IMG/VR virus record: IMGVR_UViG_3300037493_006316
Span: 22,224 to 86,223 of that record
Strand: one strand, 5' to 3'
Source: a virus
Length of the DNA: 64,000 nt
The translations under genes were made by a program, and so were the position numbers. Shown one piece after another: positions 30,360-49,410 of this stretch (position 1 is the first letter of the stretch; each line of letters opens with the position of its first letter). The notes under the pieces were generated by a model. The model saw nothing but the letters and a program-made list of their open reading frames with translations, was not told the origin of the DNA and did no database searches.

Positions 30360-31184
30360 TCAGGGGTATAGGTTGTCGAACAGGGACTTCAGCTGCAGCT
30401 TGGCGGTCTCGTCATCGTCCGACAGCGGCGGCAGCTTGTTGCGCTGCAGGGCGGCCTGCACCTTCGCCAGCGACGGGCGGGGGCCTCGGCCGCTCCACAG
30501 GTTCTTGAGGGTGTTGACGGCCTCCTCAGTGGCCTCGTAGCGCATGGCCTCAGGCAGGGTGATGGCCCCGCGCTTGACCGGCGCCGGCGCGGCCTCCTCG
30601 GCGGCCGCCACGATGGCAGCGACCTCCTCGATCACCACGACCGGGTCGGCCGCGGCGGCGGGCTGCACCTTCGGCTGCACGGCGGGCTGCTTGAAGTTGG
30701 GCGGGGGCGCCCAACCCGGCACCTGCCAGGGCCACAGGGTGGCGACCACACCGCCCCAGCCCTCGGGCGCCGGGGCCATGACCATCTGGCCAAGGTTCAG
30801 GCCCGTGGTCGCGCTCACCCCGCCTGCGGGCCCGGGATCGCCGTGGGCGCCCGTGCCGACAAGGTCCTCGGCGAACCAGCCGTTGGCCAGCGCGAGGTCT
30901 GCAGGCGTGGTCGACACGACAGGCCGGGCCGCGGCCGGGCGCGACACCGGGGCATCGACGGCCAGCGGCTTGCGGTCGAACATCTTGTCGTCGACGAGGC
31001 GGTACGACGGATGCCCGGCCGCGCGCTGCTTGACCTCGGCCTCGGCGCCGGCCGGGACCTCCGCGACGAGGCGAGCCATGCCGCGGCGGTCCAGGAGGAG
31101 GGCGAACTCGAGCGCAACCGAGCCCAGCGACGTGCGAAACTCGGTGGACCGGACGCCCGGGGGTTGGATGCGCTCGACGAACAT
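30360..31184 (-). CDS. hypothetical protein
   Basis: TGATG coupling to capsid stop; Pro/Ala linker. Confidence 0.6.
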   Translation of the reverse strand: MFVERIQPPGVRSTEFRTSLGSVALEFALLLDRRGMARLVAEVPAGAEAEVKQRAAGHPSYRLVDDKMFDRKPLAVDAPVSRPAAARPVVSTTPADLALANGWFAEDLVGTGAHGDPGPAGGVSATTGLNLGQMVMAPAPEGWGGVVATLWPWQVPGWAPPPNFKQPAVQPKVQPAAAADPVVVIEEVAAIVAAAEEAAPAPVKRGAITLPEAMRYEATEEAVNTLKNLWSGRGPRPSLAKVQAALQRNKLPPLSDDDETAKLQLKSLFDNLYP

Positions 31185-32716
31185 CAGTAGCTCCGACGGC
31201 CAACGTTGGTGAACACGTAGTTCTTGCGCGGGTCGCGCACCTCGACGCCGTAGACCGACGCGAGGAGCTGCCGGCTGACCACGAAGCCGAGCTTGGCCAG
31301 GTCCATGGTCATGAGCTGCGGGCCCAGGTGGGCCAGCGCGACCGTGTTCATGGGGGCGTCAGCCATCTGCGCGAAGGCGGCGCGGCGCTGCCAGGCGGCG
31401 TCGTAGGCCTCGGCCGAGGGGTTGGCCAGGGCGTTGACGGCCGGGCTGACGATCCGCAGGGCGAACGCGGTGGACAGGCCGGGGCGCACGTAGTTGAGGT
31501 CGTCGAAGGTCACCGACGCGGCGCTCGGCACGCGGACCTCGCCGATCAGCTGCGCGGCGGTCGTGGCGCCATCGCCGCTCGCCGGGGCGCTGCCGCGGTA
31601 GATGCGGAAGCTCTCCACGTTGGAAGCGCCGGGGGTGATGGTCAGGCGCGCGCGCTCGCCCACCGCCACGGCCTGGTGACCCGACGAGGGCACGCGGACG
31701 CCGGCGCCCTCGCGCTCGCCGACGACGGGGGTGACGACCCAGTAGAAGTCGCCGGCGCCGCCCGGGTTGCTGTCGAAGCGCGAGTTCGAGTCGCTCGAGG
31801 CAGCCACGCTCGCGATGGGGACGGTGATGGGCGCGCCGTCCTCGAGCTCGTCGGTGTAGAAGGGCTGCGCGAACGACGGGTCCAGGGTGTTGTCGGTGAG
31901 GAACGCCACCCGGTTGCCGTTGGTCTGGACGCCCGCGACCATCTGGCCCATGAACATGGGCGACAGGCCGGCGGGGATCTCGAGGCGGGCCGCGCCGTCC
32001 AGCGAGCTCTCGAAGTCCGCGCGGGTGAGCGCGTCCATGAAGATGCTGTTGATGCTGCCGAACGCGCGGATACCGCCCGCGACGACGTTGCGGATGTTGA
32101 TCAGCGACAGGGGCAGGCCCCGCATGTCGATGATGTGCGACTGGCCGTCGACACCGGTGCCGGAGGTGCCGTCGGTGCCCTCGCGGATCTGCTGCTGCAG
32201 GCCAGCCACGCGCAAGCCCGCGGTCAGGCTGCGGGTCTTGCTGTCGTCGCTGAAGTAGATGTTGCGGGCCTTCTTCCGCAGCATCAGGTTGAGGGTCGCC
32301 GCCAGTTGGAAGGCCGCCGGGGAGCCGCTCCCCATGACGCTGACCATCTTCTGCAGCTCGGCGAGCTGCGTGGTGCTGCTCTCCTCGCCCTGCAGCTTGA
32401 GGTTCACCGTCTTCTTGTCGGTCGACGGGGTGTTGCGGTTGGCCGACCCGGTCTCGCTGAAGAAGCCGTTGCCCTTGGCGTTGCCGTAGCTGAGCACCCG
32501 CGCGTACTCGTGGACGACCTTGGTCGCCTGGACGCTCGGGATGCACTTCAGCAGGGTGAGCTCGTTGGGGCTGTTCTGGTCCCACTGGGTGTTGAACGCG
32601 ACCTCCTCAAGGCTCTGGGGGACGACGCTGCTGATGCCGTCCGACGTGGTGGCCTTGGCGAGGGCGGTCCAGTCCTGGGTCTCGAGCTGGGCGAGGATCT
32701 GTGCGGCGGTGATCAT
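31184..32716 (-). CDS. major capsid protein (SPO1/Twort-like HK97 fold)
   Basis: QSLE...LLKCIPSVQATKVVHEY...YG...GFFSETG; GLQQQI; HIIDMRGLPLS; GAGGAGG RBS. Confidence 0.85.
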   Translation of the reverse strand: MITAAQILAQLETQDWTALAKATTSDGISSVVPQSLEEVAFNTQWDQNSPNELTLLKCIPSVQATKVVHEYARVLSYGNAKGNGFFSETGSANRNTPSTDKKTVNLKLQGEESSTTQLAELQKMVSVMGSGSPAAFQLAATLNLMLRKKARNIYFSDDSKTRSLTAGLRVAGLQQQIREGTDGTSGTGVDGQSHIIDMRGLPLSLINIRNVVAGGIRAFGSINSIFMDALTRADFESSLDGAARLEIPAGLSPMFMGQMVAGVQTNGNRVAFLTDNTLDPSFAQPFYTDELEDGAPITVPIASVAASSDSNSRFDSNPGGAGDFYWVVTPVVGEREGAGVRVPSSGHQAVAVGERARLTITPGASNVESFRIYRGSAPASGDGATTAAQLIGEVRVPSAASVTFDDLNYVRPGLSTAFALRIVSPAVNALANPSAEAYDAAWQRRAAFAQMADAPMNTVALAHLGPQLMTMDLAKLGFVVSRQLLASVYGVEVRDPRKNYVFTNVGRRSY

Positions 32717-32727
32717 GATGGGCCTCC

Positions 32728-33534
32728 TCAGGCCTTGAGGGACTTGTTGAGGGCCTCGCGGATCGCCGCGTCCGTCGCGGCGTCAGCGGAGAAGACCCCG
32801 TTGAACTTGAACTTGACGGCTGCGTCGGGCGACAACACGCCCTGCTCGACACCCTTGCGCAGGTCTTCGTCGCTGAAGGCAGCGGGCGCAGACTTGCCCT
32901 CGGTGCCCATGCGGGCCGCGGCCGCCGCGGGGGACGACTGCAGCGAGGTGCCGGCCGGGACGCCGGCGGGGCGCGTGGTCATCGACTTGACCAGCGGATC
33001 GACGATGCTCTCGCCGAGCTTGGCCAGCGCGAGGTGGCCCGCGCCGACCAGGGTCTGCAGCGCTGCGTTCTCGGCGCGCACAACCTGAAGCTCGGCACGA
33101 ATGACGGCGATGTCGGCCGCGTTGGTGGCAGAGGCGTCGGTGACGCTCTTGGCGAGAGCTTGCAGGCTGGCCGTGAGGTTGGCCACAAGCTCGGTGGCGT
33201 CGACATAGGCCTGGCCGTCGGCGCCCTTCTCGAGGTCATCGTAGCCGGCCTCGCTGCCGGGTTTCTCCATGTCCTCGTCGGACTTGGCGTCGCCCTCCTC
33301 CTTCTCGACGTCAGGCATCTCCTTGCCCTCGTCGCCCTTGTCGTCGGACTTGGCCTTGTCGTCGGCGTCGTCGCTGTCCTTGTTCTTGGCCATGTCCTCG
33401 GTCTTGTCCTCGGCCTTGCCGAGTTTCAGCAGGCCGAGCATGTCGCCCAGGCCCTGCTTGAGGCCGGCGCCAAGCTCGCGGCCGATGAGGGCGAGGCCGG
33501 AGCGCTCAAGCTCCGTGGGGGTGATGTCAGGCAT
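32728..33534 (-). CDS. capsid scaffolding protein
   Basis: Acidic/Lys low-complexity region plus coiled coil, between protease and capsid; many LxK[AGS] motifs. Confidence 0.65.
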   Translation of the reverse strand: MPDITPTELERSGLALIGRELGAGLKQGLGDMLGLLKLGKAEDKTEDMAKNKDSDDADDKAKSDDKGDEGKEMPDVEKEEGDAKSDEDMEKPGSEAGYDDLEKGADGQAYVDATELVANLTASLQALAKSVTDASATNAADIAVIRAELQVVRAENAALQTLVGAGHLALAKLGESIVDPLVKSMTTRPAGVPAGTSLQSSPAAAAARMGTEGKSAPAAFSDEDLRKGVEQGVLSPDAAVKFKFNGVFSADAATDAAIREALNKSLKA

Positions 33535-34276
33535 GGACGGCTCCGGCCGCGACGATGGCCGCGGCAATCTCAGGGGTGTAGCCCCGCGTTTCAGCCAACA
33601 GCCGGGCCACCTCGGCTCGGCGAAGAGGATCGGCCAGCTCGGCCCGACTCAGCGGCGTGTCAAGCGTCAGCCGGCGAGACAGCGCGAGCGGCTGGGCGGT
33701 CGCCTGGGGGTTCATCGGGATGGAGCACACCGCGGCCTGCGTGATCCGCGCACCGACGATGGTGTTGTTCCGCACCTTCGACTGGCCGTGCGCCGAGAAG
33801 CCGATGCCGCGACCCAGGGCCTCAATGGACTTGGCGAGGCCCCAGTACATGGACGCGCGGCCGAGCTCAGCCTCGGTGGGTCGCAGCGGCGCCGAGGGCT
33901 GCGGGATGGCGCCCCAGATGTCCGCCGGACGCCCCTTGGCGAACTGCTCCCAGGACGCCGGGTCGTCGCCGTCGAAGAGGTGACCCTCGGTCCACAGGCC
34001 GACCTTGCCGTGCTCCCGGGCGAGCGGATGGTCGGGCCCGCAGAACTCCAAGAAGGTCGGCACGCCCACGAACGTAGGCCGGTGCTCGTCGTTCCAGAGG
34101 CCCCAGCCGATGTAGGGCGCGAGGTCGACGGCGTCGACGCTGCCGCTGGCGAGGAAGACCTGCCCCTCGCGGTCGGACACCGGCCGCAGGCTGCCGTCGG
34201 CCATGATCTCGTGCGAGGTCGCCAGCCAACCGCCAAGGGGCCGCGTGGGGGTCCACGAGGCCTTGCGCAGGTCCAT
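33527..34276 (-). CDS. prohead protease (start uncertain)
   Basis: WNDEH, GLWTEGHLF, YWGLAKSI..LGRGIGFSAHG, AAVCSIPMNPQAT parallel the SPO1/Twort protease motifs (NYEH, LGFSIEG, PANP). Confidence 0.8.
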   Translation of the reverse strand: MDLRKASWTPTRPLGGWLATSHEIMADGSLRPVSDREGQVFLASGSVDAVDLAPYIGWGLWNDEHRPTFVGVPTFLEFCGPDHPLAREHGKVGLWTEGHLFDGDDPASWEQFAKGRPADIWGAIPQPSAPLRPTEAELGRASMYWGLAKSIEALGRGIGFSAHGQSKVRNNTIVGARITQAAVCSIPMNPQATAQPLALSRRLTLDTPLSRAELADPLRRAEVARLLAETRGYTPEIAAAIVAAGAVHA

Positions 34277-34305: not shown

Positions 34306-34349
34306 AAAACGACGAAGGCCCACCGGCCGCCCGTAGGCGGTCGTGGGCC
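34306..34349 (-). terminator. hairpin with cUACGg tetraloop and U-rich tail
   Basis: ggcccac-ga-ccgcc-tacg-ggcgg-ccg-gtgggcc then ttcgtcgtttt on - strand. Confidence 0.5.
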
Positions 34350-34382: not shown

Positions 34383-34646
34383 CTACGGCGTGCCCGTCGG
34401 CCTGTCAACCCCAACGCGCACCACAAGGCGCCTGCGGGGCGTAGGCGCGGCCGGCGCCGGCGGCATAGTCAGGGCCAGGAAGGGCAGCGGAACGACCTCA
34501 GAGCACCTGTCGCCGGGGCACCGCAGGCTCATGGAGCCGTCGGCCTCCACGCGCAGCATGGCGCCCGCGAAGGTGAGCTGACCCGACCGCACGGCCGAGA
34601 TGGGCGTGCTGCAGCGGGGGCAGCGTAGGCGGAAGGGGTCGTCCAC
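34383..34646 (-). CDS. small zinc-ribbon protein (Com-like)
   Basis: LRCPRCS...LRCPGDRC; GAGG before GTG 34646. Confidence 0.6.
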   Translation of the reverse strand: MDDPFRLRCPRCSTPISAVRSGQLTFAGAMLRVEADGSMSLRCPGDRCSEVVPLPFLALTMPPAPAAPTPRRRLVVRVGVDRPTGTP

Positions 34647-34678
34647 GTGGCCTCGCGGGCGCAGGCTATCGCGAGACG

Positions 34679-35482
34679 TCAGCCGATGTGGCGGATGTCG
34701 GGCCAGATCAGCGCCGCCCGGCGGTAGGTCGCCGGCCACCAGCGTTGCAGCCACTGGAAGTGCAACTCGGCCATGTAGGTGTCGAGCCCGACGACGAACC
34801 ACGAGTGCCGCATGGCCAACGCGTCGGCGCCGATGTCGATGCAGCCGTAGACCGGGTGCAGCGGCACCTTGTTGGCCCACAACATTGCGTGCACGTCCAG
34901 CGCGGTCCACGCCCGCAGAGGCGCGGCGCGCCAGGTGCCGTCGGCGATCTGGTAGAACGCGCCGCGCGACCACAGCAGCATGCGGCGGCGCTTGTTCTCC
35001 TCGGCGCGCAGGCCCCAGAACATCGAACGCCCCGCGCGTGTGCGGTTGGCGGCATCGAACCAGGGCCCGGACAGCGCGCCGCGGCGCTGGTCATCGGTGG
35101 AGCCGTCGAGCGGCCGCGAGGTGTCGATCTGCACCCACGGCAGCTCCAGCGAGCATTCGACCTCGAGCGCAACACGCTGCAGGTAGGTCTCCTCTCCCTC
35201 CCAGCACAGATCGTCGCGCAGCGACAGCAGCGGCACCCGAACGCCGGCCTCTCGCAGGATCAGCGCCAGCGCCGTCGAGTCCTTGCCGCCGGACACGCTG
35301 GCCTGCCAGGCGTCTGCTCGGGTCATGGCTGAGCGGACCACGTCAACGGCCTCGGCGCGGCGCCGGGCGAACTCGCGGCTGTTCGCGTGAAGCATCACCT
35401 GCCGCGCCGGGTAGCGAACGCCCCAGTCGTCGCGGTCGGGCATCGGGCCGTCCCACCAGCCCTCAAGCGCCTCACGCCGCAT
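34679..35482 (-). CDS. cysH: CysH-like / PAPS-reductase-family protein (type IV-B associated)
   Basis: PP-loop SVSGGKDS, WGLRAEENKRR, PLRAWTALDV...VPLHPVY; no C-terminal ECG motif of true sulfate-assimilation CysH. Confidence 0.85.
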   Translation of the reverse strand: MRREALEGWWDGPMPDRDDWGVRYPARQVMLHANSREFARRRAEAVDVVRSAMTRADAWQASVSGGKDSTALALILREAGVRVPLLSLRDDLCWEGEETYLQRVALEVECSLELPWVQIDTSRPLDGSTDDQRRGALSGPWFDAANRTRAGRSMFWGLRAEENKRRRMLLWSRGAFYQIADGTWRAAPLRAWTALDVHAMLWANKVPLHPVYGCIDIGADALAMRHSWFVVGLDTYMAELHFQWLQRWWPATYRRAALIWPDIRHIG

Positions 35483-36218
35483 GCAGCACGCCCCACCCTT
35501 CGCTCCGATGGGCCCCCAGCGCAGTGTGCGGCGGCAGCACGGCGTTGCAGACGAAGTCGCAGACGAAGCCCACGGCGCGCGCGCCTTGGCCGCGGGCTGG
35601 CCGCTCGAAGGACACCGGCACCAGCCGCAGCGTCGACGAGTCGATGACGACGTGGGGCACGATGGACTGCCGCAGCACGCCGAGCTCGCCCAACAGCGTC
35701 ACCACCGCGGCCGACAGGTAGTGCCCAGCCCAGGCCAGCTCGAGCATGTCGTTGCCGCGCGGGCGCCGCTGATCCACGACGCTGCTCGGGAAGATCGGCG
35801 ACCGCAGGCTGTAGCGCCGCCAGGACTTGCCCAGGTACTGCGCGTCGGTCTCGCCGACCTCAAGCTCGCACCCGCGCACCTCGAGGACCTCGCCGGCCGG
35901 CAGGCGCAGAGCGCGCACCCGGCCCAACAGCGCGGCGTTGGTCGCGGCCCGCGGCCCGACGAAGTACAGCTCGGGCACGTCAAACACGCGGTAGTGCACC
36001 TCGGACGGGCGCGCCGACGACTGCGCATCGTCGCCGTGGTTGTGCCACGACACGGACGCGCCGCAGAGGTCCTCGATCTGCTTGACGACCGCGCCGCGCA
36101 GGATGCGCGCCGGTTTGCGCCGCCAGTCGCAGTCGAGCCGCGCCAGCGCCCAAGGGGTGCGGCGCACCCAGGGGTAGCCCTCGACCTCGGCGCCGAGCGG
36201 CGGCAGCTCGGGCGTCAC
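35472..36218 (-). CDS. Cas6-like RAMP protein
   Basis: C-terminal Gly loop LGAHRSEGWG (GxxxxxGxG), YSLRSPI, GFVCDFVCNAVLP; N-terminal ILRGAV, WHNH, VHYR; GTGA coupling to csf3. Confidence 0.65.
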   Translation of the reverse strand: MTPELPPLGAEVEGYPWVRRTPWALARLDCDWRRKPARILRGAVVKQIEDLCGASVSWHNHGDDAQSSARPSEVHYRVFDVPELYFVGPRAATNAALLGRVRALRLPAGEVLEVRGCELEVGETDAQYLGKSWRRYSLRSPIFPSSVVDQRRPRGNDMLELAWAGHYLSAAVVTLLGELGVLRQSIVPHVVIDSSTLRLVPVSFERPARGQGARAVGFVCDFVCNAVLPPHTALGAHRSEGWGVLHAA

Positions 36219-36877
36219 CGCGACACCGTCTGCCAGCACGCCACCGCGCGCCCCACCTGGTGGTAGGGCGGCCGGGTTGGCACGAAGGTTTGCCGCACGC
36301 GCCCACGGGGCAACTCCGCCACCGCGTCGACCGGCAGGTGCCGCAGGCGCACCTCAGCGGCGTAGGCCGCAAGCTCAGGCCCGCCCGGGTCGTCGATGAC
36401 CTCCCAGCGGCGCACCCAGCCCCACCCGTGCGTGCGGCGGGCTCCGATGCCGTCGATGTAGCTGAGCGCCGTCGCAATGGCCTCGGGATCACCGATGCAC
36501 GTCCACGACACCTCGTTCATCTCCACCCGCGAGTAGAGCGGCACCCGGAGGCTCTTGTCCGGGCCGGCGCCGCTGTCGATGTTGCGCACGCCGTCGAGCA
36601 GCTCGGCGATGTGCCCCGCGTGCCGGCGGTGCGCGTAGCTGAGCGCCTCCATGCCGTGGAGCACCGCCTGCGACGCGGCCCACCACCAATCGCCCCCGGC
36701 CTCGACCCGGGCGAGCGGCAGGGGCAGCGCGTCGGCCTCGTCGAGGTCCATGATGCCGCCCGGCAAGTTGTGGCAGGCCACCTGCGCCACGCCGGCGAGA
36801 AGCAGCCCGTCGAGCATCGGCGGCACCTTGAGCAGCGCGGGCTGCGCAAGGTGCGCGGTGACCCTGAGCTTTCTCAC
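36215..36877 (-). CDS. csf3: type IV CRISPR effector Cas5 (Csf3)
   Basis: LRVTAHL, MLDGLL, LPLPLAR, WWWAASQ, GPDKSLRVPL, WTCIGD, IGARRTHGWGWV, PTRPPYH; AAGGAG RBS. Confidence 0.85.
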   Translation of the reverse strand: MRKLRVTAHLAQPALLKVPPMLDGLLLAGVAQVACHNLPGGIMDLDEADALPLPLARVEAGGDWWWAASQAVLHGMEALSYAHRRHAGHIAELLDGVRNIDSGAGPDKSLRVPLYSRVEMNEVSWTCIGDPEAIATALSYIDGIGARRTHGWGWVRRWEVIDDPGGPELAAYAAEVRLRHLPVDAVAELPRGRVRQTFVPTRPPYHQVGRAVACWQTVSR

Positions 36878-37899
36878 AGGTTCAGCTCCTTGCGGATCTG
36901 CTCCGCGTTGGCCCGCACGTGCTCCGCGTAGGCCGTGGCAAAGGCCTCGGCCGACGGGTCGATGCTCTCGGCGTGCTCGAGGGCCTCGGCGGACGCGACC
37001 GTGACCGGCACCGGGCCGCCCACGCCCCGGGTGCGGCTGGCGACGGCGATCCGCACCGCGCACTGACCGTGCCCCTTCGAGGACGCCCCGCCCAGGTGCG
37101 CCCCGCTCGAGATCCAGCGTGTCAGCGCGAGCATCAGGCAGGCGGCTTCGTTGTCGGTGGCGTCGGTGAGCCGGATGGTGCACACCATCGGCGTTCCGGG
37201 CGCGATGGCTTGGAACGCGTGGGGCATGCTCTCGTTGGCCTCGCGGCGCTCATCCTTGCCAGCCGCCTTGCCCTTCCGGGCCGCGGCCGCGTCCTCGATC
37301 TGCCGGAGCTCGGCCGGGGGCAGCAGCGCCGCGGCGTGCGAGGTCTTCAGGTCGTGCCGGTAGTAGGTGATCGGCGTGGGGCTCTCGATCAGGTGGTGCG
37401 GCAGAGGCGGCTGGCCACCGAACAGCAGAGGCTTGAGCCCGGCGGCGCCGACGTCGATCAGGCCGCTGCCCACCGTCAGGTCGGTGTAGGGCATGACCGT
37501 CGAGACCTGCACACGGCCGCGCATGATCATCGCGCCATCCATCGCGCCAAAGACGCTGAGCACGGGCAGCAGGTCGCGCATGCGCCGGGCCTCGTCGAGG
37601 TTGGCCACGCGGTCGCTGCCCTCCATTTTGCCGCCCTTGAACAGCAGGCGCAGGCCGTCGCGGTTGACCTCGGAGATGCCTGCGAGCTGCAAGAACAGCA
37701 GGCCCGCGTGCTCGCGCAGGGTGGCCTTCATCGCGGCGCCGGACACGCAGGCGACGTCCTCCTGGCCCCAGCGGCCGTCGCGACAGACGTTGAGCGTTCG
37801 GCGGTGCAGCTCTTGCTCGTTGCCGTTGTTGCCGGCCCCATGGGTCAGGGCCGTGCGGGGCGTGATCTCGAGCACGAAGGTGTAGCTGTGGCGGGTCAT
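36874..37899 (-). CDS. csf2: type IV CRISPR effector Cas7 (Csf2)
   Basis: TALTHG, VSGAAMKATLR, LLFKGG, LPVLSVFGA, MRGRVQV, YYRHD, MPHAFQAIAPGT, HLGGASSKGHG; AAGGAG RBS, ATGA coupling. Confidence 0.88.
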   Translation of the reverse strand: MTRHSYTFVLEITPRTALTHGAGNNGNEQELHRRTLNVCRDGRWGQEDVACVSGAAMKATLREHAGLLFLQLAGISEVNRDGLRLLFKGGKMEGSDRVANLDEARRMRDLLPVLSVFGAMDGAMIMRGRVQVSTVMPYTDLTVGSGLIDVGAAGLKPLLFGGQPPLPHHLIESPTPITYYRHDLKTSHAAALLPPAELRQIEDAAAARKGKAAGKDERREANESMPHAFQAIAPGTPMVCTIRLTDATDNEAACLMLALTRWISSGAHLGGASSKGHGQCAVRIAVASRTRGVGGPVPVTVASAEALEHAESIDPSAEAFATAYAEHVRANAEQIRKELNL

Positions 37900-38402
37900 T
37901 CGGTCTCCTTGGCGTAGGCGCGGACCTGCCGCAGCCAGTCGATGAGCAAGCCGGTGGCCTGGATGACCTGCTCCATGCCCTCCCGGCTGCGGAGGGTGGT
38001 CCAGGTGTCGAGGCCGAGCTCCTGCCCGGCGCCGGCGGTGCCGCAGGCCCTGCGCCACCACAGAGCGCTCTCTGCGTGCAGCGCGTCGCCGCGGCAGCCC
38101 AGGCCTTGCAGGACGTTCAGGCCCCAGGCCTCGAGGCTGTGCGAGCGCGAGCGCGCGCCGCGCATGCGGGCGCCCAGCCGCTCCTGCGCCTCGAAGCCCT
38201 TGAGGCTCTTGAGGTTGCCGGTCGTGTAGCCGGCCCGCCAGGCGAGCACCCCGAAGTAGGCCGGAGCGATGACCTCAGCCGAAAAGGCTGAGCTGTCGTC
38301 GAGCAGGCCCGTCGGCACGAGGGCGCGCAGCAGGTGCGTCGCTCTCTCGGGCTCGCTCAGGGGCTTGAGGTACTCCAGCGCCGGGGTCGGCAGCTCGATC
38401 AT
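37896..38402 (-). CDS. small alpha-helical subunit, Cas11/Csf4-like by position
   Basis: 168 aa helical protein between csf1 and csf2; AGGAG RBS before ATG 38402. Confidence 0.6.
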   Translation of the reverse strand: MIELPTPALEYLKPLSEPERATHLLRALVPTGLLDDSSAFSAEVIAPAYFGVLAWRAGYTTGNLKSLKGFEAQERLGARMRGARSRSHSLEAWGLNVLQGLGCRGDALHAESALWWRRACGTAGAGQELGLDTWTTLRSREGMEQVIQATGLLIDWLRQVRAYAKETE

Positions 38403-39453
38403 GGATGGGCTCCTGCGGCGCGGGCGCCGCCTTGGGGGTGACGGGCGCCGGGGGCGTGGCCCTGATGGCGTCGGTCGACGGGCGGATGGCCTCGGCCAGC
38501 TCAAGCAGCGCCGAGCCGCGCCAAAGTCGGATGATGGGGTCCCAGGTGCGCGCCGCCAGCACGATCTGCGCGTCACCGCGAGGCCGATAGGCGCCGCTGA
38601 GCACCTCTTCGGGGTGCGCGCCGGCGCGGATCAGCTCTTCCATCGCCCGCAGCACGGCGGCCAGATCGGCAGGCGCGTAGCAGACGAGGCCCGGGCCGTT
38701 GCAGTAGACGCTCTGCACCTCGACGCGCCCGTCGCTGATGGGCGCGAGGTAGGCGCAGTGCTTCTGGCCGTCGCCCATGCTGAGCGACCAGGGCGCCGCC
38801 GGGGGGTTGAGCAGCACGCCGCGGATGACCTCGCGGTCGGCCGGGCGCTGAGCCTTGAGTGCGTGCCAAGCGCCGTCGATGACCAGGTGGTCGTAGTTGC
38901 GGAACTTGCCCACCATGGCCGCGCCGACGTCGGCCTCATCCAGCGTCGCCAGCAGCGGCAGCTCGGGCGGCATCGTCGACAGGTCGCCGCCGGCGGCCGC
39001 TGCTCGAGCCGCAAGCCAGGCCGCCTCAAGCGGCGCGCCGCGCTTGCCCTGTGGCGGCCGCGCGAAGACGTAGACCGTCGAGCCGGGCCCGCGGCAGATG
39101 GATGCCTTCGCGCCGCGGTCGCCGCCGAGGCTCAGCGAGACCTTGCCGTCGCCGTCGAGAGCCGCCTGCAACTGCGGCGCCCAGACCGCGCGCGGCAGGC
39201 TCACCCAGTCGGACAGCGACCACCCGCAGGCGTGGCAGAGGAACGCGCTGTCGAGGATGGCGGGCCCGCGCGGGATTGTCGCGTGGAAGCTGTCTGGCAG
39301 CGTCGAGATCGGCCGGCCGGAGCCGCCCAGGTCAACGCCGCACCACCAACACCCGGCGCCTTGCGGCGCGGGCTCGGCCTGCTCTGCGGTGGGGCGACCG
39401 GCGGCGCGCCACATGAGCGCGACGCCGGTCCTGGGGCTGGTCGAGGGCTTCAT
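38275..39453 (-). CDS. csf1: type IV CRISPR large subunit Cas8-like (Csf1)
   Basis: CWWCG...LCHAC Zn finger, FRNYDHLV..GAWH, LLNPPAAPW, GDGQKH; C-terminal QLSLFG. Confidence 0.8.
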   Translation of the reverse strand: MKPSTSPRTGVALMWRAAGRPTAEQAEPAPQGAGCWWCGVDLGGSGRPISTLPDSFHATIPRGPAILDSAFLCHACGWSLSDWVSLPRAVWAPQLQAALDGDGKVSLSLGGDRGAKASICRGPGSTVYVFARPPQGKRGAPLEAAWLAARAAAAGGDLSTMPPELPLLATLDEADVGAAMVGKFRNYDHLVIDGAWHALKAQRPADREVIRGVLLNPPAAPWSLSMGDGQKHCAYLAPISDGRVEVQSVYCNGPGLVCYAPADLAAVLRAMEELIRAGAHPEEVLSGAYRPRGDAQIVLAARTWDPIIRLWRGSALLELAEAIRPSTDAIRATPPAPVTPKAAPAPQEPIHDRAADPGAGVPQAPERARESDAPAARPRADGPARRQLSLFG

Positions 39454-39468
39454 GCCCTCTGCGTAATC

Positions 39469-40758
39469 TCAGGCCCCGGAGGGTGCAACGAGAGACCAGT
39501 CCGCCGGGCCCGCCTTCGGCCCGGCCTCCCACCGGATCTTGTCCTGCCGGGCCAGCGCCGGATCGCCCACCACGCCCGCGCGGGCGCCGCCCGGGTCGCG
39601 GCCGGGGATCTTCGCGACGGGGCGCAGGCCCTTGTCGGCGAGAGCCTTGTAGGTCGCGCCCTCCTCGCTGCTCAGGCTGTAGGTCACCAGCTTGCTGGGC
39701 ACCGCACGCGCAGCGAGCTGCCAGACGTCGAGCACCCGGGCGACCAGCTTGCTGGCCGCGCCCTTGACCGTGCCGTCGGTCGCCACCCGGGTCAGCTCCA
39801 CGACGCCGTGCGGGTCCGCGTACCGCGCCGTCGGGGCGTTGCAGACCGCAACACCCACAAGCCGAGCGCCACGGGCGACCCCGATGCAGAACAGCAGCCC
39901 GCGCGGGTTCGCCTCGGGCAGTGCGCTATGGTGCCGCTGCACGAAGTCGAAGGCGTCGCGCTTGCTCACCGGAACCAAGCGCAGTTCGGCGTCATCGCTG
40001 AGACTGTCGACCAGCACGGCCAGGGCCGCCCACTCCGGGAGCTCGAAGCCGTCGCCGATGGTCTTGCCGCCGCGGCCCGCGCCACCCACGCGCCACCGCC
40101 AGTCGGGCTCGTGTCGGCCCCAGACGTGAAGCGCCAAGCAGGTGACCAGCACCGCCAGATCAGCTTGCTCAACCGCGCTCAGCTCGCGGCCCGCTGCGTC
40201 CTGACCGGGCACGCCGACCAGCTCGGCCAGGGTCCACGCGTCGGGCTCTTCATAGGGGTCGTCGGGGTCGTCGAGGTCGTCGACCTGCCCCATCTCGCGG
40301 TCCCACGCCCACTTCATCTCGGGCTCGTTCATCATCGCGTGCGCCAGCGACAACATCGCCGAGGCCATGCCGAACGCGCGCACGTCGGCGTCGGGCAGCG
40401 GACGGAACGCCCGCGTCCCGGGCACGGGCTCAGCTACCGCGCCGAAGCGGTCATGCAGCGTGACGGGGGCGGCCTGGAACATCGTGGCCTGGGCGCCGAC
40501 GGCGCCGCGGAAGCGCTCGGCGTCCCCCATGGCCTCGACGTCGGACGCGAACCGCCCCTCGATCACCCCGTCGCGCCGCAGCTCGTAGCGGAGCGCAGCC
40601 TTGACGAGGTCCACATCAAGCCGGTTAGCCACAGCCACCACGAACGACGCGCCGTGGCGCCGGACCGTCCAGGTGCCGTCTTCCTGTCGCCGCCAGGGGT
40701 CGTCGCGCAGGCCGTCGAGCTTGGCCTCGCGGGGCAGGATGTGCAGGCGCATGGTCAC
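39469..40758 (-). CDS. Mom/XF1762-like GNAT DNA-modification protein with unknown N-terminal domain
   Basis: DAFDFVQRHHS, FCIGV, LVGVAVCNAPTAR, VELTRVATDG, AASKL, LVTYSLSSEEGATYKA, KIRWE. Confidence 0.75.
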   Translation of the reverse strand: MTMRLHILPREAKLDGLRDDPWRRQEDGTWTVRRHGASFVVAVANRLDVDLVKAALRYELRRDGVIEGRFASDVEAMGDAERFRGAVGAQATMFQAAPVTLHDRFGAVAEPVPGTRAFRPLPDADVRAFGMASAMLSLAHAMMNEPEMKWAWDREMGQVDDLDDPDDPYEEPDAWTLAELVGVPGQDAAGRELSAVEQADLAVLVTCLALHVWGRHEPDWRWRVGGAGRGGKTIGDGFELPEWAALAVLVDSLSDDAELRLVPVSKRDAFDFVQRHHSALPEANPRGLLFCIGVARGARLVGVAVCNAPTARYADPHGVVELTRVATDGTVKGAASKLVARVLDVWQLAARAVPSKLVTYSLSSEEGATYKALADKGLRPVAKIPGRDPGGARAGVVGDPALARQDKIRWEAGPKAGPADWSLVAPSGA

Positions 40759-41345
40759 CGCCGAGGCCGGGTTGCGCGGAGGGCGCCCTCCATCGCCGCG
40801 GCCTGTTTGAGGACCTCGTCATAGCGCGCTGGGTCGTGCGATACCACGCGCTGCAGCGCGCTCATCGCCTCGTCGTAGGCGCGAAGCATGGCCGCGGGCG
40901 GCATTTCGCCGCGCTCGATCAGCGGCATCATCTCGGCGCGCCGCAGCTCGACGGCGGCCGCCGCCTCGACGTCGTCGCACAGAGCCACCGGCGGCGCGAA
41001 GGCTGCCAGCGAGAGCTGCGCCGACCCGACGCGCACCGGCTCGCAGCCGTCTGGGCGCGGCTCGAGCGCCAGCTGCTCGCCCTTCGGCTCACCCGTGCCG
41101 GCCGGCGGCGCCGGCGGCAGGCGCCGCTCTGTGGGCACCCGGCCGTGCGGCCGCACCGTCACCGCGCCAGCCTCCGTGCGCCGGACGTGACCCCGCACAG
41201 GCACGCCGGGCGCCTTGGGGATGGGCAGCAGCGCCAGCGGGCGCCCAGGGCCCGCCACGCGCACTGCGGCGCCCTCCAGGCCCTGGGGCGTCGCCGGCGC
41301 CGTCGCGGCAGATTCCGCCTTGCGCAGCACGAGGCGGGCCTGCAT
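40755..41345 (-). CDS. probable internal head protein
   Basis: N-terminal LVLRKA; basic VRGHVRRT..G.VTVRPHGR motif; TGATG coupling. Confidence 0.5.
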   Translation of the reverse strand: MQARLVLRKAESAATAPATPQGLEGAAVRVAGPGRPLALLPIPKAPGVPVRGHVRRTEAGAVTVRPHGRVPTERRLPPAPPAGTGEPKGEQLALEPRPDGCEPVRVGSAQLSLAAFAPPVALCDDVEAAAAVELRRAEMMPLIERGEMPPAAMLRAYDEAMSALQRVVSHDPARYDEVLKQAAAMEGALRATRPRR

Positions 41346-43438
41346 CAGTCCTCCACGGTGGCGTAGCCGTAGGCGGCGAACGCGCTCACGCTGCGGTCGG
41401 GAATGGCTTCGACGGCAGCCCACTGCTGCTCGGCGACCTCGACAACGCGAGCGAACTCGGCCTGCGCCGGGGTGTTCTGGTACGTGTCGCCCGTGGCGAG
41501 GATCACCAAGCGGATCTGCTCGCCGCCCACCTCGAGCTTGTCGTTCAGTCCCAGCGAGGCCTTGGTCCCAAACACCTTCCGCGCATGCGCGGTCGGCTCG
41601 TCGGCGCCGAACACCCTGTCGAGCACGTCGCGCGTCGGGCACTCGCCGACCCGCATGGTCAGCGTGCGCGTCGCCGGGCTCCAGTCCATGCCCACGAGGT
41701 GACCCTGCAGGCCCCCGGGCTCGGGCTGCACCCACCCGTCGGACTCGGCCGAGGCCCAGGCGTCGGCAGCAGCCGCCTGCGGGCGGCAGTCCTTGAGCCC
41801 CCGCGCCGCGCCGGCCAGGCGCCGGGCCAGCCGCACGGCCAGGGTCTCACCCTGCTTGCTCGGGCCCAGGAAGCGCAGCCGCGCGATGCAGTCCCGGGCG
41901 GTCTCGGCCGCGGCGAGGTCCTCCATCGCCTTCGTCGCCCACAGGTGCGTGGCGCCCTCCATGCGGAAGGCGGACGCCACAGGGTCGCCGGCCTCGATGT
42001 CGAGCCGGGCGTGGCCCTCGATCCAGGCCGCCGGAACCGACACGGGCTCGTCGCCCAGCAGGGCGCTCACCGCCTCGCGCATGGCCCAGGACGCGGCGCA
42101 CTGCGCGCGCCAGAGGTTCGCGCTGGCCCGGGGGTGCAGGGCATCGTCGAGCGCGCCGGCGCGGGTCGCCGGCAGGGTGTAGGCCATGTCGTGGCTCACC
42201 CAGGCGATGAGCGCCGCGGCGCGCGGGCCGGCGGCGATCTCCATTGCGTCGAGAATGGCCGCAAGGTGCATCATCCCGGCGTGAATGTGCCGCGCACCGC
42301 GGTCGGCCTGCCGCGCGCGCCAGGCTTCGACCTCCTGGTGGAGGATCTTCTGCGCAACGTCGGCGATGATGACCGCCGCAGTGATCGGCGCCACCTGCGC
42401 CATAGCCAGGGCCCGCGCGACCTCGGTCACCGCCTTGGTCGCCCGCCCCGCGTTGGTCTGGTCGATCCAGCCCGCGGTCACCGCCTCTGCGAAGTAGCGG
42501 CCGGCTTGGCTGGCGATGGAGTACCCGGGCTCAATCTCGATGGGGTAGCGGCGCGCCATCTCGGCTTGCACCACGGTCCAGTCGGCCGCGGCGTCCACCC
42601 GCTCGGCCGGGCCCATGGTGGCCCACCCGGGCGGCAGCTTGAACGGGGCATCGGCGAACTCCAACCCGTCGCCCCACGTCGCCGCCGACACCGACTCGGA
42701 CGTGCTCACCGACTCAGAGCTGTCGTCGTCGTCGCCGAGCTCCTCGCCCACCTGCGCCCACTGGTAGGTGCCGTGGGCGGCCTTGACGGACTGGCCGCCG
42801 ACGTCGACCGTCAGGCCCATGCCGCCGACACCGGTGATCGTGCCGGCGCGCTGCTTGCCGTCGACCATGACGAGCACCGTCTCGCCCTGGGCCTTGGCCA
42901 GGCGCTCGGCGATGGCGCTCGGGCGGTCCAGGCGCGGGATCGTGCCCCCGGCGCGCAGCAGGTTGGCCAGCTCTTCGGCCGGCCACGCGGTCAGGCCGTG
43001 GAAGAACCCGCCGGCCGTGTAGGCGCTGCGGTAGAGCGCCTCGGCGTCGGCCGCGCTGGCCACCCCGATCACGACCTTGTCTTCGTCGATGGCCTGCGTT
43101 CCGGGGTGCTTCTGGTGCACCACGAAGGCCATCGGAGCTCCGAGGTCCGGCCCGACGAAGACGTCGACCGGATCGCCGTCGAGCGCGCTAATGGTGCCGG
43201 CCACCTCGCCGTAGTGCGCGGGCATCGTCACCCGCCAGCCGGGGCCGCTGCGGTCCTCGCCCTCGGCCGTCTCGATCAGCAGGGTCAGACCGCGCCAGAG
43301 CAGTGAGCCGACGTAGGGGTGCTCTTCGCGCCCGGGCGTCGGCGCCGGGGGCGGGAGCAGGACCGGGCTCTTGCGTGCGCCGCGGCTGTCGGCGAGCCGC
43401 TGCACCGCGCTTGGATCGAACACGTTGCGGCCCCTCAT
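41345..43438 (-). CDS. polyvalent protein: inorganic-pyrophosphatase-like domain plus HD-like domain
   Basis: HYGEVAGTISALDGDPVDVFVGP...VVHQ...DEDKVVIG; later DRGARHIH, SHDMAY, HPRASA. Confidence 0.7.
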   Translation of the reverse strand: MRGRNVFDPSAVQRLADSRGARKSPVLLPPPAPTPGREEHPYVGSLLWRGLTLLIETAEGEDRSGPGWRVTMPAHYGEVAGTISALDGDPVDVFVGPDLGAPMAFVVHQKHPGTQAIDEDKVVIGVASAADAEALYRSAYTAGGFFHGLTAWPAEELANLLRAGGTIPRLDRPSAIAERLAKAQGETVLVMVDGKQRAGTITGVGGMGLTVDVGGQSVKAAHGTYQWAQVGEELGDDDDSSESVSTSESVSAATWGDGLEFADAPFKLPPGWATMGPAERVDAAADWTVVQAEMARRYPIEIEPGYSIASQAGRYFAEAVTAGWIDQTNAGRATKAVTEVARALAMAQVAPITAAVIIADVAQKILHQEVEAWRARQADRGARHIHAGMMHLAAILDAMEIAAGPRAAALIAWVSHDMAYTLPATRAGALDDALHPRASANLWRAQCAASWAMREAVSALLGDEPVSVPAAWIEGHARLDIEAGDPVASAFRMEGATHLWATKAMEDLAAAETARDCIARLRFLGPSKQGETLAVRLARRLAGAARGLKDCRPQAAAADAWASAESDGWVQPEPGGLQGHLVGMDWSPATRTLTMRVGECPTRDVLDRVFGADEPTAHARKVFGTKASLGLNDKLEVGGEQIRLVILATGDTYQNTPAQAEFARVVEVAEQQWAAVEAIPDRSVSAFAAYGYATVED

Positions 43439-48978: not shown

Positions 48979-49410
48979 TCAGCTCCGCTTGGTCAGGCCG
49001 CGAACCCCGATGAAGCCGTCATCGGTCGGGGTGCCGGCGATGTTTTTGACCGTGCAGGTCAGGCCGATGCCGTTGCCGTACTGCAGGATGAACGTGTCCG
49101 CGGTGATCGCGACCTCGGTCTCCAGCCGCCACGACCCGTCTGGGTAGTCGCGGGGCGTAGTGATCTTGGTGCGGTCCACCACGAACTCCACCCACCGCCA
49201 GAGGCAGAGGTCGGCGCCCGTCGCGCCCGGCGGCAGCAGCACCACCCACTCGACCTCGGTGTTGGTGAAGCCCTCGGGCCGGGCCTGCAGCGAGGTCGTC
49301 GGGTCCGCCATGTTCGCGGAAAACCGCGCCACCGCAGAGAACTTGGCGTCCGGGTTGCCAACGCGCGCGTCCGGCGCCAGTCCGCGGAGGTTCTGGTCGT
49401 GGGTGCTCAA
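48979..49410 (-). CDS. hypothetical virion protein
   Basis: AGGAG RBS; TTGA overlap with portal stop. Confidence 0.55.
   Translation of the reverse strand: MSTHDQNLRGLAPDARVGNPDAKFSAVARFSANMADPTTSLQARPEGFTNTEVEWVVLLPPGATGADLCLWRWVEFVVDRTKITTPRDYPDGSWRLETEVAITADTFILQYGNGIGLTCTVKNIAGTPTDDGFIGVRGLTKRS

What the first reader, a model, noticed from the sequence alone, without database searches (positions are those of the whole stretch)
34383..40758. Mom-like GNAT, Csf complex, PAPS-reductase-family enzyme and Zn-ribbon: candidate Cas-scaffolded DNA-modification system
Seen: a Mom/XF1762-like gene ends 15 bp before csf1 on the same strand. The operon closes with a CysH-like protein lacking the ECG redox tail, then a Com-like Zn-ribbon and a hairpin. 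Known: Mu Mom modifies adenine in DNA and is translationally activated by the Zn-ribbon Com; PAPS-reductase-family PP-loop proteins (DndC, SspD) act in DNA phosphorothioation. Inference: two potential nucleic-acid-modifying enzymes bracket the Csf genes, so the unit may install anti-restriction modifications on progeny DNA. The Com resemblance is weak.
Basis: inference. Interest (0 to 1): 0.8.

Follow-up and report, generated by a model that had tools for sequence, protein, structure and literature searches.

The report
Phage type IV-B Cas cassette beside Mom-like gene
A complete 86-kb phage genome carries a known kind of array-less CRISPR-Cas module (type IV-B with its usual CysH-like partner) that appears to have been inserted between a Mom-like DNA-modifying gene and a small zinc-ribbon gene of the phage head operon, so the four parts are neighbours by insertion and not one conserved system.

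Summary

The single-system reading is not supported.
- Csf plus CysH is the published hallmark of type IV-B, including the idea that CysH modifies nucleic acid.
- The Mom-like module lies within 10 kb of Csf genes only in 2 close relatives.
- It is absent from 11 of 11 more distant Csf loci.
- 14 of 14 other Mom-module loci lack Csf genes.

In those 14 loci the Mom module is usually part of giant "polyvalent" proteins beside the portal. These often also hold a pyrophosphatase and a different clade of PAPS-reductase domain.

In three such phages a similar small zinc ribbon directly follows the Mom-bearing gene and precedes the head protease. This suggests the Csf-CysH cassette was inserted between the two.

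The window's CysH groups with Csf-linked CysH, not with the polyvalent clade. This scan had already noted the Mom/PAPS/pyrophosphatase polyprotein on other DNA.

Verdict: a rare Cas6-bearing phage IV-B variant beside an independent Mom-like anti-restriction module.

The parts
41345..43438 (-). 697-aa protein with an N-terminal inorganic-pyrophosphatase (InPase) domain. It is a polyvalent-protein-type head-operon gene and lies outside the Cas cassette.
   Evidence: Pfam PF18823 InPase scores 86.9 bits over aa 44-160. phrog_4660 'minor head protein' hits at E 4e-17 and phrog_10089 'DarB-like' at E 7.5e-12. Segments match giant ORFs of other phages.
40755..41342 (-). Small ORF of unknown function; its start is uncertain. 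Its stop overlaps the Mom-like gene's start.
   Evidence: Third-position GC supports the frame. Orthologues are present in L001 and L024 at 38-47% identity. It has no family hit.
39469..40758 (-). Mom-like / XF1762-family protein of 429 aa. It has a helical N-domain (about aa 100-250) and a C-terminal GNAT domain (about aa 250-429).
   Evidence: NF045478 scores 72.9 bits against a cut-off of 50. phrog_1384 hits at E 4.5e-14. The AlphaFold model has mean pLDDT 69.9. Foldseek gives GNAT matches, with Mu Mom 8bv8_B second at E 2.8e-6. It is the only XF1762 match in the genome.
38275..39453 (-). csf1 (Cas8-like large subunit), 392 aa. It has an N-terminal CxxC...CxxC motif and a Pro-rich linker, and ends in Q-L-S-L-F-G.
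   Evidence: The call rests on position plus homologues beside csf2 in L003, L005, L025, L028 and L030. 2 of 10 aligned members hit TIGR03114 cas8u_csf1, best E 3.7e-4. The window protein itself has no family hit.
37896..38402 (-). cas11-like small subunit of 168 aa. It overlaps the csf1 end by 128 nt.
   Evidence: It sits between csf1 and csf2, as in type IV-B. Homologues hold the same position in L025-L028 at 24-33% identity. It has no family hit.
36874..37899 (-). csf2 (Cas7), 341 aa.
   Evidence: TIGR03115 hits at E 1.4e-13, below the cut-off. phrog_22746 hits at E 1e-32. The family profile A1 hits the PDB 7jhy type IV-B Csf2 at E 1.8e-25. 3 of 72 homologues are named Csf2 by JGI.
36215..36877 (-). 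csf3 (Cas5), 220 aa. Its GTG start overlaps the csf2 stop.
   Evidence: TIGR03116 hits at E 3.7e-15, below the cut-off. The start was read from the sequence.
35472..36239 (-). Cas6b-like endoribonuclease gene of 255 aa. Canonical type IV-B lacks a Cas6.
   Evidence: Pfam Cas6b_C hits at E 5.4e-4 for the window protein. 36 of 38 aligned family members hit it, best E 2e-12. The profile hits the PDB 4z7k Cas6b at E 4.5e-11. The representative library holds 55 cluster representatives at E <= 0.001.
34679..35482 (-). CysH-like PP-loop protein (CasCysH type) of 267 aa.
   Evidence: PF01507 scores 34 bits against a cut-off of 22.5. The S-x-G-K-D-S loop is invariant and none of 7 aligned sequences has an ECG tail. 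It groups with the Csf-linked clade in the tree, support 94/93. It is the only PAPS_reduct match in the genome.
34383..34646 (-). 87-aa zinc ribbon with a Pro-rich, basic tail. It is probably a head-operon gene and not part of the Cas cassette.
   Evidence: Orthologues occur only in L001 and L024 among Csf loci. hhalign against the small zinc ribbons that follow Mom-bearing ORFs in L007, L009 and L010 gives probability 72%, E 3.4e-5 over 47 columns. The control against the Csf1 zinc finger gives E 0.083. There is no Com-family hit at E <= 10.
34306..34349 (-). Hairpin plus T-rich run between the zinc ribbon and the prohead protease gene (ATG at 34276).
   Evidence: Sequence and centroid fold. 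The outer arms and the T-run are conserved in L001 and L024, with different inner stems. The z-score is -0.52, and the terminator scan did not list it.

Best explanation
The stretch is a mosaic of two units that work independently.

Unit 1 is ancestral to the late (head) operon of this 86-kb phage. It is a run of split 'polyvalent-protein' modules between the portal and the prohead protease. It holds an InPase-domain protein, a small ORF, the two-domain Mom-like/XF1762 protein and, probably, the small zinc ribbon. By homology to Mu Mom, the Mom-like enzyme most likely acylates or aminoacylates adenines in phage DNA to blunt restriction. This activity is inferred, not shown.

Unit 2 is a type IV-B-like CRISPR-Cas effector cassette: csf1, cas11, csf2, csf3, a Cas6b-like gene and the CysH-like gene. 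It was inserted between the Mom-like gene and the zinc-ribbon gene in the common ancestor of this phage and two close relatives. It is transcribed with the late genes, up to the hairpin.

The Csf proteins presumably form an RNA-loaded Cascade-like complex. The CysH-like PP-loop enzyme is its usual type IV-B accessory, and its chemistry is still unknown. The apparent bracketing of the Cas genes by two modifying enzymes is therefore a result of where the cassette landed.
For: Phage context:
- The genome is one 86,223-bp contig with a 127-bp terminal repeat, classed as 100% complete.
- Terminase, portal, protease and major capsid genes flank the stretch.

Co-occurrence, by profile search of six-frame ORFs in all fetched loci and by tblastn:
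- Of 14 non-window Csf2 loci, only L001/L002 (one contig) and L024 hold the Mom module. Their Csf2 is 76% identical to the window's.
- L023 (86-87% identical) is a 3.2-kb fragment that does not reach that far.
- 0 of the 11 loci with Csf2 at or below 49% identity hold it. Six of these have 4-8 kb upstream of csf1.
- 0 of 14 distinct Csf-less Mom-module loci hold csf1, csf2, csf3 or Csf-type cysH.

The Mom module in other phages:
- It sits inside ORFs of 996-2205 aa next to the portal.
- Of 5 such ORFs scanned, 4 hold InPase and 3 hold PAPS_reduct.
- Window proteins match successive segments of these giant ORFs.

The CysH-like gene:
- 9 of the 14 Csf loci keep a CysH homologue.
- In the tree, the 8 Csf-linked CysH sequences form one branch (support 94/93), apart from the 8 polyvalent-type domains (81/81) and 2 IbrA-like proteins.

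The zinc ribbon:
- A 73-85-aa zinc ribbon overlaps the stop of the Mom-bearing ORF in L007, L009 (=L034) and L010. A protease homologue follows it in 2 of these 3 loci.
- It aligns with the window's zinc ribbon over both knuckles.

Context of other Csf cassettes: they lie among replication and integration genes, not head genes. L003 has an integrase, L025 a DnaB, and L028 an SF2 helicase and a radical SAM gene.

Literature: type IV-B is csf1-3 plus cas11 plus a cysH-like gene that lacks the catalytic Cys (PMC8175902 section 7, read). Cas6 occurs in 'only 12 instances', and IV-B is sometimes found in prophages (PMC7038947, passages).
Against: - The Mom-csf1 junction is very tight (15 nt) and is kept in the relatives, even though the Mom-like proteins are only 57-59% identical. 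That is also what a functional link would give.
- The sample of Csf loci with long flanks is small, and flanks stop at 10 kb.
- The zinc-ribbon homology rests on thin profiles of 2 and 3 sequences. A profile built from the three look-alikes alone did not find the window's zinc ribbon at E <= 10.
- Half of the Csf-less Mom loci (7 of 14) pair the Mom module with another PAPS-reductase-family domain. A Mom/PP-loop partnership therefore exists in general, and a substitute role for CasCysH in this phage is not excluded.
- No repeats or other scars mark the insertion.
Confidence: 0.72

Rival explanations
1. The Mom-like enzyme, the Csf complex, CysH and the zinc ribbon form one Cas-scaffolded system that installs anti-restriction modifications on progeny DNA.
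For: - The genes form one tightly packed operon closed by a hairpin.
- The order is kept in 2 of 2 relatives with enough sequence.
- Mom-like modules are often fused to PP-loop and pyrophosphatase domains elsewhere, so a GNAT/PP-loop pairing is plausible.
- Csf1 ends in a clamp-binding-like motif in 6 of 10 aligned homologues. That could bring the complex to replicating DNA.
Against: - There is no co-occurrence outside the immediate lineage: 0 of 11 distant Csf loci and 0 of 14 Mom loci.
- The window's CysH belongs to the Csf-linked clade, which exists without any Mom module.
- The zinc ribbon is absent from the other Csf cassettes.
- Mu Mom needs only charged tRNA-Gly and dsDNA in vitro (PMC13219725, abstract and passages).
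Confidence: 0.07
2. The cassette's place in the head operon is adaptive. Csf-CysH is made late and packed into the capsid, or acts at packaging, together with the polyvalent-type cargo. It would then be delivered with the DNA as a counter-defence, for example by sponging or redirecting host guide RNAs.
For: - The cassette lies inside the block of split polyvalent modules, between the portal and the protease.
- Polyvalent proteins are proposed virion cargo (PMC5512222, passages).
- No promoter-like or terminator-like site was listed inside the block.
Against: - Other phage Csf cassettes sit among replication and integration genes, so head linkage is not a family trait.
- A multi-subunit RNP is an unlikely capsid cargo.
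- No packaging signal or protease cut site was examined.
Confidence: 0.1
3. The zinc ribbon is a Com-type translational activator that controls the Mom-like gene or the late operon.
For: - Look-alike zinc ribbons directly follow Mom-bearing ORFs in 3 Csf-less loci.
- A joint profile aligns with Mu Com over both knuckles, with probability 60%, E 8.5e-5 over 35 columns in a single pairwise comparison.
- Mu Com was the best non-member hit of that profile among 8167 six-frame ORFs, at E 0.034.
Against: - There is no Com-family hit in Pfam at E <= 10.
- The window-only profile matches just one knuckle of Com, over 17 columns.
- The gene lies downstream of the Mom-like gene, not upstream and overlapping its start as in Mu.
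- The look-alikes occur only where the protease gene follows, so the link may be to head assembly.
Confidence: 0.1

Closest known systems
Type IV-B CRISPR-Cas with CasCysH (for example Mycobacterium sp. JS623, PDB 7jhy)
   Same: It has the same order, csf1, cas11, csf2, csf3, followed by a cysH-like PP-loop gene without the catalytic Cys. There is no helicase, nuclease or adaptation gene. It is carried by a mobile element. The best PDB sequence match of the Csf2 profile is the IV-B Csf2.
   Different: It has a Cas6b-like gene, which is reported for only 12 IV-B loci (PMC7038947). The proteins are very divergent: the curated Csf2 and Csf3 models match below their cut-offs. It sits in a lytic-type phage late operon. 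Csf1 carries a clamp-binding-like tail.
Atypical type IV-B of Bathyarchaeia 'Fuxivirus' (PMC10848311)
   Same: It is a virus-encoded IV-B with a CysH-like gene. That virus has a two-repeat mini-array. This phage has a candidate two-repeat array elsewhere in its genome.
   Different: That system is from an archaeal virus and its array is beside the cas genes. Here the candidate array lies about 48 kb away and is unproven.
Phage Mu Mom and Com
   Same: The C-terminal domain is a predicted GNAT with Mu Mom among the top fold matches. Residues invariant in the family align with Mom's essential Arg and Ser. A small four-Cys zinc ribbon lies in the same operon.
   Different: The protein has an extra helical N-domain of about 250 aa. 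The Pfam Mom model does not reach threshold. The zinc ribbon lies downstream, 4.8 kb away here and directly after the Mom-bearing gene in relatives. It does not match the Com family.
Phage polyvalent proteins / DarB-type virion cargo (Iyer et al. 2017, PMC5512222)
   Same: InPase and other modules lie next to the portal in the late operon. In relatives the Mom module is one domain of 996-2205-aa multi-enzyme ORFs.
   Different: In this phage the modules are separate genes. Neither 'Mom' nor 'PAPS' occurs in that paper's text (0 occurrences each).

Membership tests
Type IV-B CRISPR-Cas | Type IV Cas7 (csf2) | tested here: met
   TIGR03115 hits at E 1.4e-13, 50.8 bits, below the cut-off of 130. 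The family profile hits the 7jhy Csf2 at E 1.8e-25. JGI names 3 of 72 homologues Csf2.
Type IV-B CRISPR-Cas | Type IV Cas5 (csf3) | tested here: met
   TIGR03116 hits at E 3.7e-15, 56.1 bits, below the cut-off of 140, covering model positions 3-214 of 223.
Type IV-B CRISPR-Cas | csf1 large subunit | tested here: inconclusive
   The window protein has no family hit. 2 of 10 aligned homologues hit TIGR03114, best E 3.7e-4. The CxxC...CxxC motif and the position upstream of cas11 are conserved. There is no PDB sequence match.
Type IV-B CRISPR-Cas | cas11-like small subunit between csf1 and csf2 | tested here: inconclusive
   A 168-aa ORF sits in the right place and has homologues in 4 other Csf loci. 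It has no profile hit.
Type IV-B CRISPR-Cas | Adjacent cysH-like gene with a PP-loop and no catalytic Cys tail | tested here: met
   PF01507 scores 34 bits. The S-x-G-K-D-S loop is invariant and there is no ECG tail in 7 of 7 aligned sequences. It falls in the Csf-linked clade.
Type IV-B CRISPR-Cas | No Cas6 | tested here: not met
   A Cas6b-like gene is present. The literature allows rare exceptions: 12 instances (PMC7038947).
Type IV-B CRISPR-Cas | No CRISPR array | tested here: inconclusive
   Tandem Repeats Finder listed no array-like repeat in the window. Two dissimilar hairpin repeats 72 nt apart lie at genome 8487-8603. Processing was not tested.
Type IV-B CRISPR-Cas | No helicase or nuclease effector in the cassette | tested here: met
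   No DinG, RecD or HD domain was found among the cassette proteins in Pfam or NCBIfam.
Mom / XF1762 family | Match to the curated family model | tested here: met
   NF045478 scores 72.9 bits against a cut-off of 50, and 75.9 bits in the genome search. phrog_1384 hits at E 4.5e-14. The Pfam Mom model PF25680 was not reported for the window protein at E <= 0.1. It scores 24.6 bits, below the cut-off of 27.1, for the L009 homologue.
Mom / XF1762 family | GNAT fold | tested here: met
   The model shows GNAT topology in aa 258-412. 212 PDB matches have E <= 0.001, the listed top ones all GNAT acetyltransferases. RimI is first and Mu Mom 8bv8_B second.
Mom / XF1762 family | Essential Arg and Ser of Mu Mom (R111 and S124 in PMC13219725) | tested here: inconclusive
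   hhalign of A2 against Mu Mom pairs them with R324 and S336, and pairs Mom's His-Tyr with H276-H277. All are invariant or nearly so in A2. The alignment itself is weak, with E 0.021 and probability 2.3%.
Mom / XF1762 family | HTH-like insertion needed for activity | tested here: inconclusive
   Two short helices (aa 391-403) lie between the last strands of the model. No residue-level structural alignment was available.
Mom / XF1762 family | tRNA-dependent modification of adenine in dsDNA | not testable with these tools
   This needs nucleoside LC-MS or SMRT kinetics.
Mu Com | Profile match to the Com zinc-ribbon family | tested here: not met
   Pfam at E <= 10 gave only zf-FPG_IleRS (0.054) and DNA_ligase_ZBD (0.057). 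Pairwise BLASTP to Mu Com matched 14 aa around one knuckle.
Mu Com | Gene directly upstream of, and overlapping, mom | tested here: not met
   In Mu, com at 35768-35956 overlaps the mom start at 35907. Here the zinc ribbon lies 4.8 kb downstream. In L007, L009 and L010 it follows the Mom-bearing ORF.
Phage polyvalent proteins | Several effector domains in one polypeptide encoded among late or packaging genes | tested here: not met
   In the window the modules are separate genes. In relatives they are fused in ORFs of 996-2205 aa. The location next to the portal is met.

The most novel reading that the evidence does not exclude
In this phage lineage the type IV-B cassette may have been recruited into the Mom-type anti-restriction module. 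Csf1's clamp-binding-like tail would hold a Csf complex, loaded by Cas6b with RNA from a mini-array, at replicating phage DNA. The CasCysH PP-loop enzyme would stand in for the PAPS-reductase-type domain that accompanies Mom modules in half of the other phages. DNA hypermodification would then be RNA- or replisome-directed.
Probability: 0.07. Interest if true: 0.85.

Novelty: new variant of a known kind. Interest (0 to 1): 0.4.

Why it matters
The function of type IV-B systems and of their near-invariant CysH partner is a long-standing open question. This complete phage genome carries a rare Cas6-bearing form, expressed with late genes, and it belongs to a family with dozens of metagenomic relatives. 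That makes it a compact candidate for expression and deletion tests.

The finding's headline, a Cas-scaffolded DNA-modification machine, is most likely an accident of insertion. That matters as a caution against reading function from a single neighbourhood.

A separate by-product could guide work on Mom-type DNA hypermodification. Mom-like modules travel with pyrophosphatase and PP-loop domains in giant head-associated proteins, and are often followed by a small zinc ribbon.

Tried and rejected
Searches that found little or nothing:
- blastn of the whole stretch against 50,697 phage records found no match.
- tblastn of Csf2 found only Skermania phage SPI1, at 26.7% identity, and one Frondihabitans plasmid, at 24.1%. 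Canonical plasmid IV-B loci could therefore not be sampled here.
- A genome-contig scan with the Csf2 alignment found no relative. The scan with the Mom alignment found 2 loci.
- No tRNA gene and no array-like tandem repeat were found in the window.
- The Mom alignment had no sequence match in the PDB at E <= 1. Its C-terminal domain alone gave only a chance hit.
- The mini-array spacers have no match in the phage's own genome or in the fetched loci. The array region was not found in the 29.7-kb fragment of the relative.

Ideas considered and dropped:
- I considered that the window's CysH might be a split-off polyvalent PAPS domain. The tree rejects this.
- I considered that the zinc ribbon belongs to the Cas cassette. 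It is absent after cysH in L003, L004, L005, L029 and L032.

Literature searches:
- 'XF1762' gave 0 papers.
- 'Mom-like' with 'phosphoadenosine phosphosulfate reductase' and 'phage' gave 3 papers. I read passages of one of them. Its table lists a Mom-like gene next to a DarB-like gene in a Clostridium prophage and does not mention Cas genes.
I could not see Pinilla-Redondo's list of the 12 IV-B loci with Cas6, or the Mom homologue alignments of PMC13219725.

The neighbourhoods of most of the 72 Csf2 and 52 Mom-like database hits were therefore not seen.

Full report
**What is there.** The window is bases 22224-86223 of a single 86,223-bp contig. It has 72% G+C, and its first 25 bases recur 127 bp from the end. 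The collection classes it as a virus record with direct terminal repeats, 100% complete.

Third-position GC marks one long minus-strand gene chain. PHROG matches place the finding inside the late operon:
- large terminase, 51616-53685
- portal, 49407-51371
- prohead protease, 33527-34276 (weak match, E 2.5e-5)
- major head protein, 31184-32716

Between the portal and the protease the genes are, in order:
- several ORFs without family hits
- a 697-aa protein with an InPase domain (86.9 bits)
- a small ORF
- the Mom-like gene
- csf1, cas11, csf2 and csf3
- a Cas6b-like gene
- the CysH-like gene
- an 87-aa zinc ribbon
- a hairpin with a T-rich run

Junctions are tight or overlapping. The gap between the Mom-like gene and csf1 is 15 nt. 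The overlaps are csf1/cas11 128 nt, cas11/csf2 ATGA, csf2/csf3 GTGA, csf3/cas6 25 nt and cas6/cysH 11 nt. The gap between cysH and the zinc ribbon is 32 nt.

**Identity of the parts.**
[quoted passage not shown] A model built on 21 sequences has mean pLDDT 69.9, and the first 56 residues are below 50. The model shows a helical N-domain and a C-terminal GNAT. In the PDB fold search, RimI and the Mu Mom crystal structure 8bv8 lead a long list of GNATs with near-equal scores. The fold therefore does not by itself single out Mom.
- *Mom catalytic residues.* A weak profile alignment to Mu Mom, taken from record AF083977, pairs Mom's essential Arg and Ser with R324 and S336 of the window protein. 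The paper is PMC13219725 (abstract and passages read); its numbering is 10 higher than the record's. The same alignment pairs Mom's His-Tyr with H276-H277. These positions are invariant or nearly so across the 21-sequence family alignment.
- *Csf2 and Csf3.* Both match the type IV models below their cut-offs. The Csf2 family profile finds the type IV-B Csf2 of PDB 7jhy at E 1.8e-25, well ahead of the type IV-A Csf2 at 3.3e-5.
- *Csf1.* It is identified by position, a conserved double CxxC motif, and weak TIGR03114 hits for 2 of 10 homologues.
- *Cas6-like gene.* It is well supported. 36 of 38 family members match Pfam Cas6b_C, and the profile finds Cas6b 4z7k at E 4.5e-11.
- *CysH-like protein.* It passes PAPS_reduct, keeps the PP-loop, and has no redox tail, as do all 7 aligned Csf-linked homologues.

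**What is already known.** Reviews and surveys state four things (PMC8175902 section 7, read in full; PMC7038947, passages).
- Type IV-B consists of csf1, csf2, csf3 and cas11, with a nearly invariant cysH-like neighbour that lacks the catalytic cysteine and carries a PP-motif.
- It occurs on plasmids and sometimes in prophages.

A virus-borne IV-B with a two-repeat mini-array has also been described (PMC10848311, passages).

**Is the Mom-like gene part of the system?** I collected 14 non-window loci with a Csf2 relative and 14 distinct Csf-less loci with the Mom module. I scored all of them by tblastn and by profiles of six-frame ORFs.
- The Mom module accompanies Csf genes only in L001/L002 (one IMG/VR contig) and L024. 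Their Csf2 is 76% identical to the window's, and they share the whole gene order through to the capsid gene.
- L023 is a 3.2-kb fragment that does not reach the Mom position.
- None of the 11 loci with Csf2 at or below 49% identity has the module. Five of them are short fragments of 5.4 kb or less. Six have 4-8 kb upstream of csf1.
- None of the 14 Mom-module loci has csf1, csf2, csf3 or a Csf-type cysH within 10 kb.
- Rows I treated as duplicates: L002=L001, L008 with L007, L019=L013, L017 with L016, L021=L020, L034=L009.

**Where the Mom module normally lives.** In the other phages, the two-domain module (N-domain plus XF1762 domain) lies inside ORFs of 996-2205 aa next to the portal. I scanned five of these ORFs in Pfam:
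- 4 hold InPase.
- 3 hold PAPS_reduct.
- Individual ORFs also hold RadC, peptidase C39 or a phosphoribosyltransferase domain.

This is the architecture of phage polyvalent proteins (PMC5512222, passages). That paper's text contains neither 'Mom' nor 'PAPS'. The window's 494-aa, 436-aa, 697-aa and Mom-like proteins match successive pieces of such giants. This phage therefore carries the same modules as separate genes. This scan had already noted such a polyprotein on other DNA (e1-6081193). Its length, 1509 residues, equals that of my L013 ORF.

**Two kinds of PAPS-reductase relatives.** A polyvalent-type PAPS domain accompanies the Mom module in 7 of the 14 Csf-less loci. In a maximum-likelihood tree of 18 sequences:
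- the 8 Csf-linked CysH proteins form one branch (support 94/93)
- the 8 polyvalent-type domains form another (81/81)
- 2 IbrA-like proteins form a third (100/99)

The L004 and SPI1 rows sit on long branches. The window's CysH groups with L001 and L024, and then with L003, L005 and L029, all of them Csf-linked. It is also the only PAPS_reduct match in the genome.

A general Mom/PP-loop/pyrophosphatase partnership therefore exists. The enzyme in this window is the Cas-associated kind, which occurs widely without any Mom module.

**The zinc ribbon.**
- Among Csf loci it has orthologues (70-72% identical) only in L001 and L024. Nothing like it follows cysH in L003, L004, L005, L029 or L032.
- It has no Com-family or other significant Pfam match at E <= 10.
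- In L007, L009 (=L034) and L010, a 73-85-aa zinc ribbon overlaps the stop of the Mom-bearing giant ORF by 4-11 nt. A protease homologue follows it in 2 of these 3 loci.
- A profile-profile comparison with the window's zinc ribbon gives probability 72%, E 3.4e-5 over 47 columns that span both knuckles.
- As a control, the same query against the Csf1 zinc finger gives E 0.083 over 13 columns.
- Against this reading, a profile of the three look-alikes alone did not retrieve the window's protein, and all the profiles are thin.
- With Mu Com, the joint profile aligns over 35 columns at E 8.5e-5. The window-only profile matches just one knuckle.

I read this as moderate support for two points. The zinc ribbon is a head-operon gene that normally abuts the Mom-bearing gene. 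And csf1 through cysH were inserted between the two.

**Context of other Csf cassettes.** L003 has an integrase, plus an IbrA-like PAPS_reduct+DUF3440 gene and a weak methylase match between csf3 and cysH. L025 has the same csf1-cas11-csf2-csf3-cas6-cysH set, followed by DnaB. L028 has an SF2 helicase upstream and a radical SAM gene after csf3. The head-operon position is thus peculiar to this lineage.

**Mechanism, with what is shown and what is inferred.**
- Shown: gene content, gene order, family membership, and the distribution across loci.
- Inferred: the Mom-like enzyme modifies phage DNA on its own, by analogy with Mu Mom, which needs only Gly-tRNA and dsDNA (PMC13219725).
- Inferred: the Csf proteins form an RNA-bound complex, as in 7jhy.
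- Inferred: the Cas6b-like protein may supply a guide RNA.
- Unknown: the chemistry of CasCysH. The literature proposes AMPylation-type activity.

**Verdict.** The best reading is a mosaic: a rare Cas6-bearing, phage-borne type IV-B variant, inserted next to an independent Mom-like polyvalent-type module. I put confidence in this at 0.72. The integrated Cas-scaffolded modification system remains possible at about 0.07. Interest is moderate, at 0.4.

Noticed in passing
window 38275-38402 (Csf1 C-terminus): Csf1 ends in R-Q-L-[S/G]-L-F-G after a Pro-rich linker in 6 of 10 aligned homologues, including the distant L030. The other 4 lack it. The motif resembles the bacterial sliding-clamp-binding consensus, which I recall and did not test.
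   Followed up: partly
own genome 8487-8603, minus strand (13.6 kb before the window start; locus L035): Two dissimilar hairpin repeats have 3' ends 72 nt apart. Each is followed by an AT-rich stretch of 34-36 nt. The ends resemble the 8-nt handle left by Cas6b-type processing (recalled). The spacers have no match in the phage's own genome or in the fetched loci.
   Followed up: partly
L006, L007, L013/L019, L014, L015, L018, L020/L021: Giant head-operon ORFs, or adjacent ORFs, combine the Mom/XF1762 module with InPase and a distinct clade of PAPS-reductase domain. Neither 'Mom' nor 'PAPS' occurs in the text of the 2017 polyvalent-protein paper.
   Followed up: partly
L003 12308-15463 and L005 11700-14387: Three conserved genes sit between csf3 and cysH: one with a weak DNA-methylase match, one unknown, and an IbrA-like PAPS_reduct+DUF3440 protein.
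   Followed up: no
L028 7638-9182: In this Csf locus a radical SAM protein follows csf3, and no cysH was found in the 8.5 kb downstream.
   Followed up: no
L032 (Skermania phage SPI1, KR011061, about 33.3-36.2 kb): This isolated actinophage, annotated only with hypothetical proteins in this region, carries distant Csf2, Csf3 and CysH homologues. It could serve as a culturable model.
   Followed up: partly
window 60174-60317: Tandem Repeats Finder lists tandem repeats of about 19-22 nt built on a short palindrome, near the replication genes.
   Followed up: no
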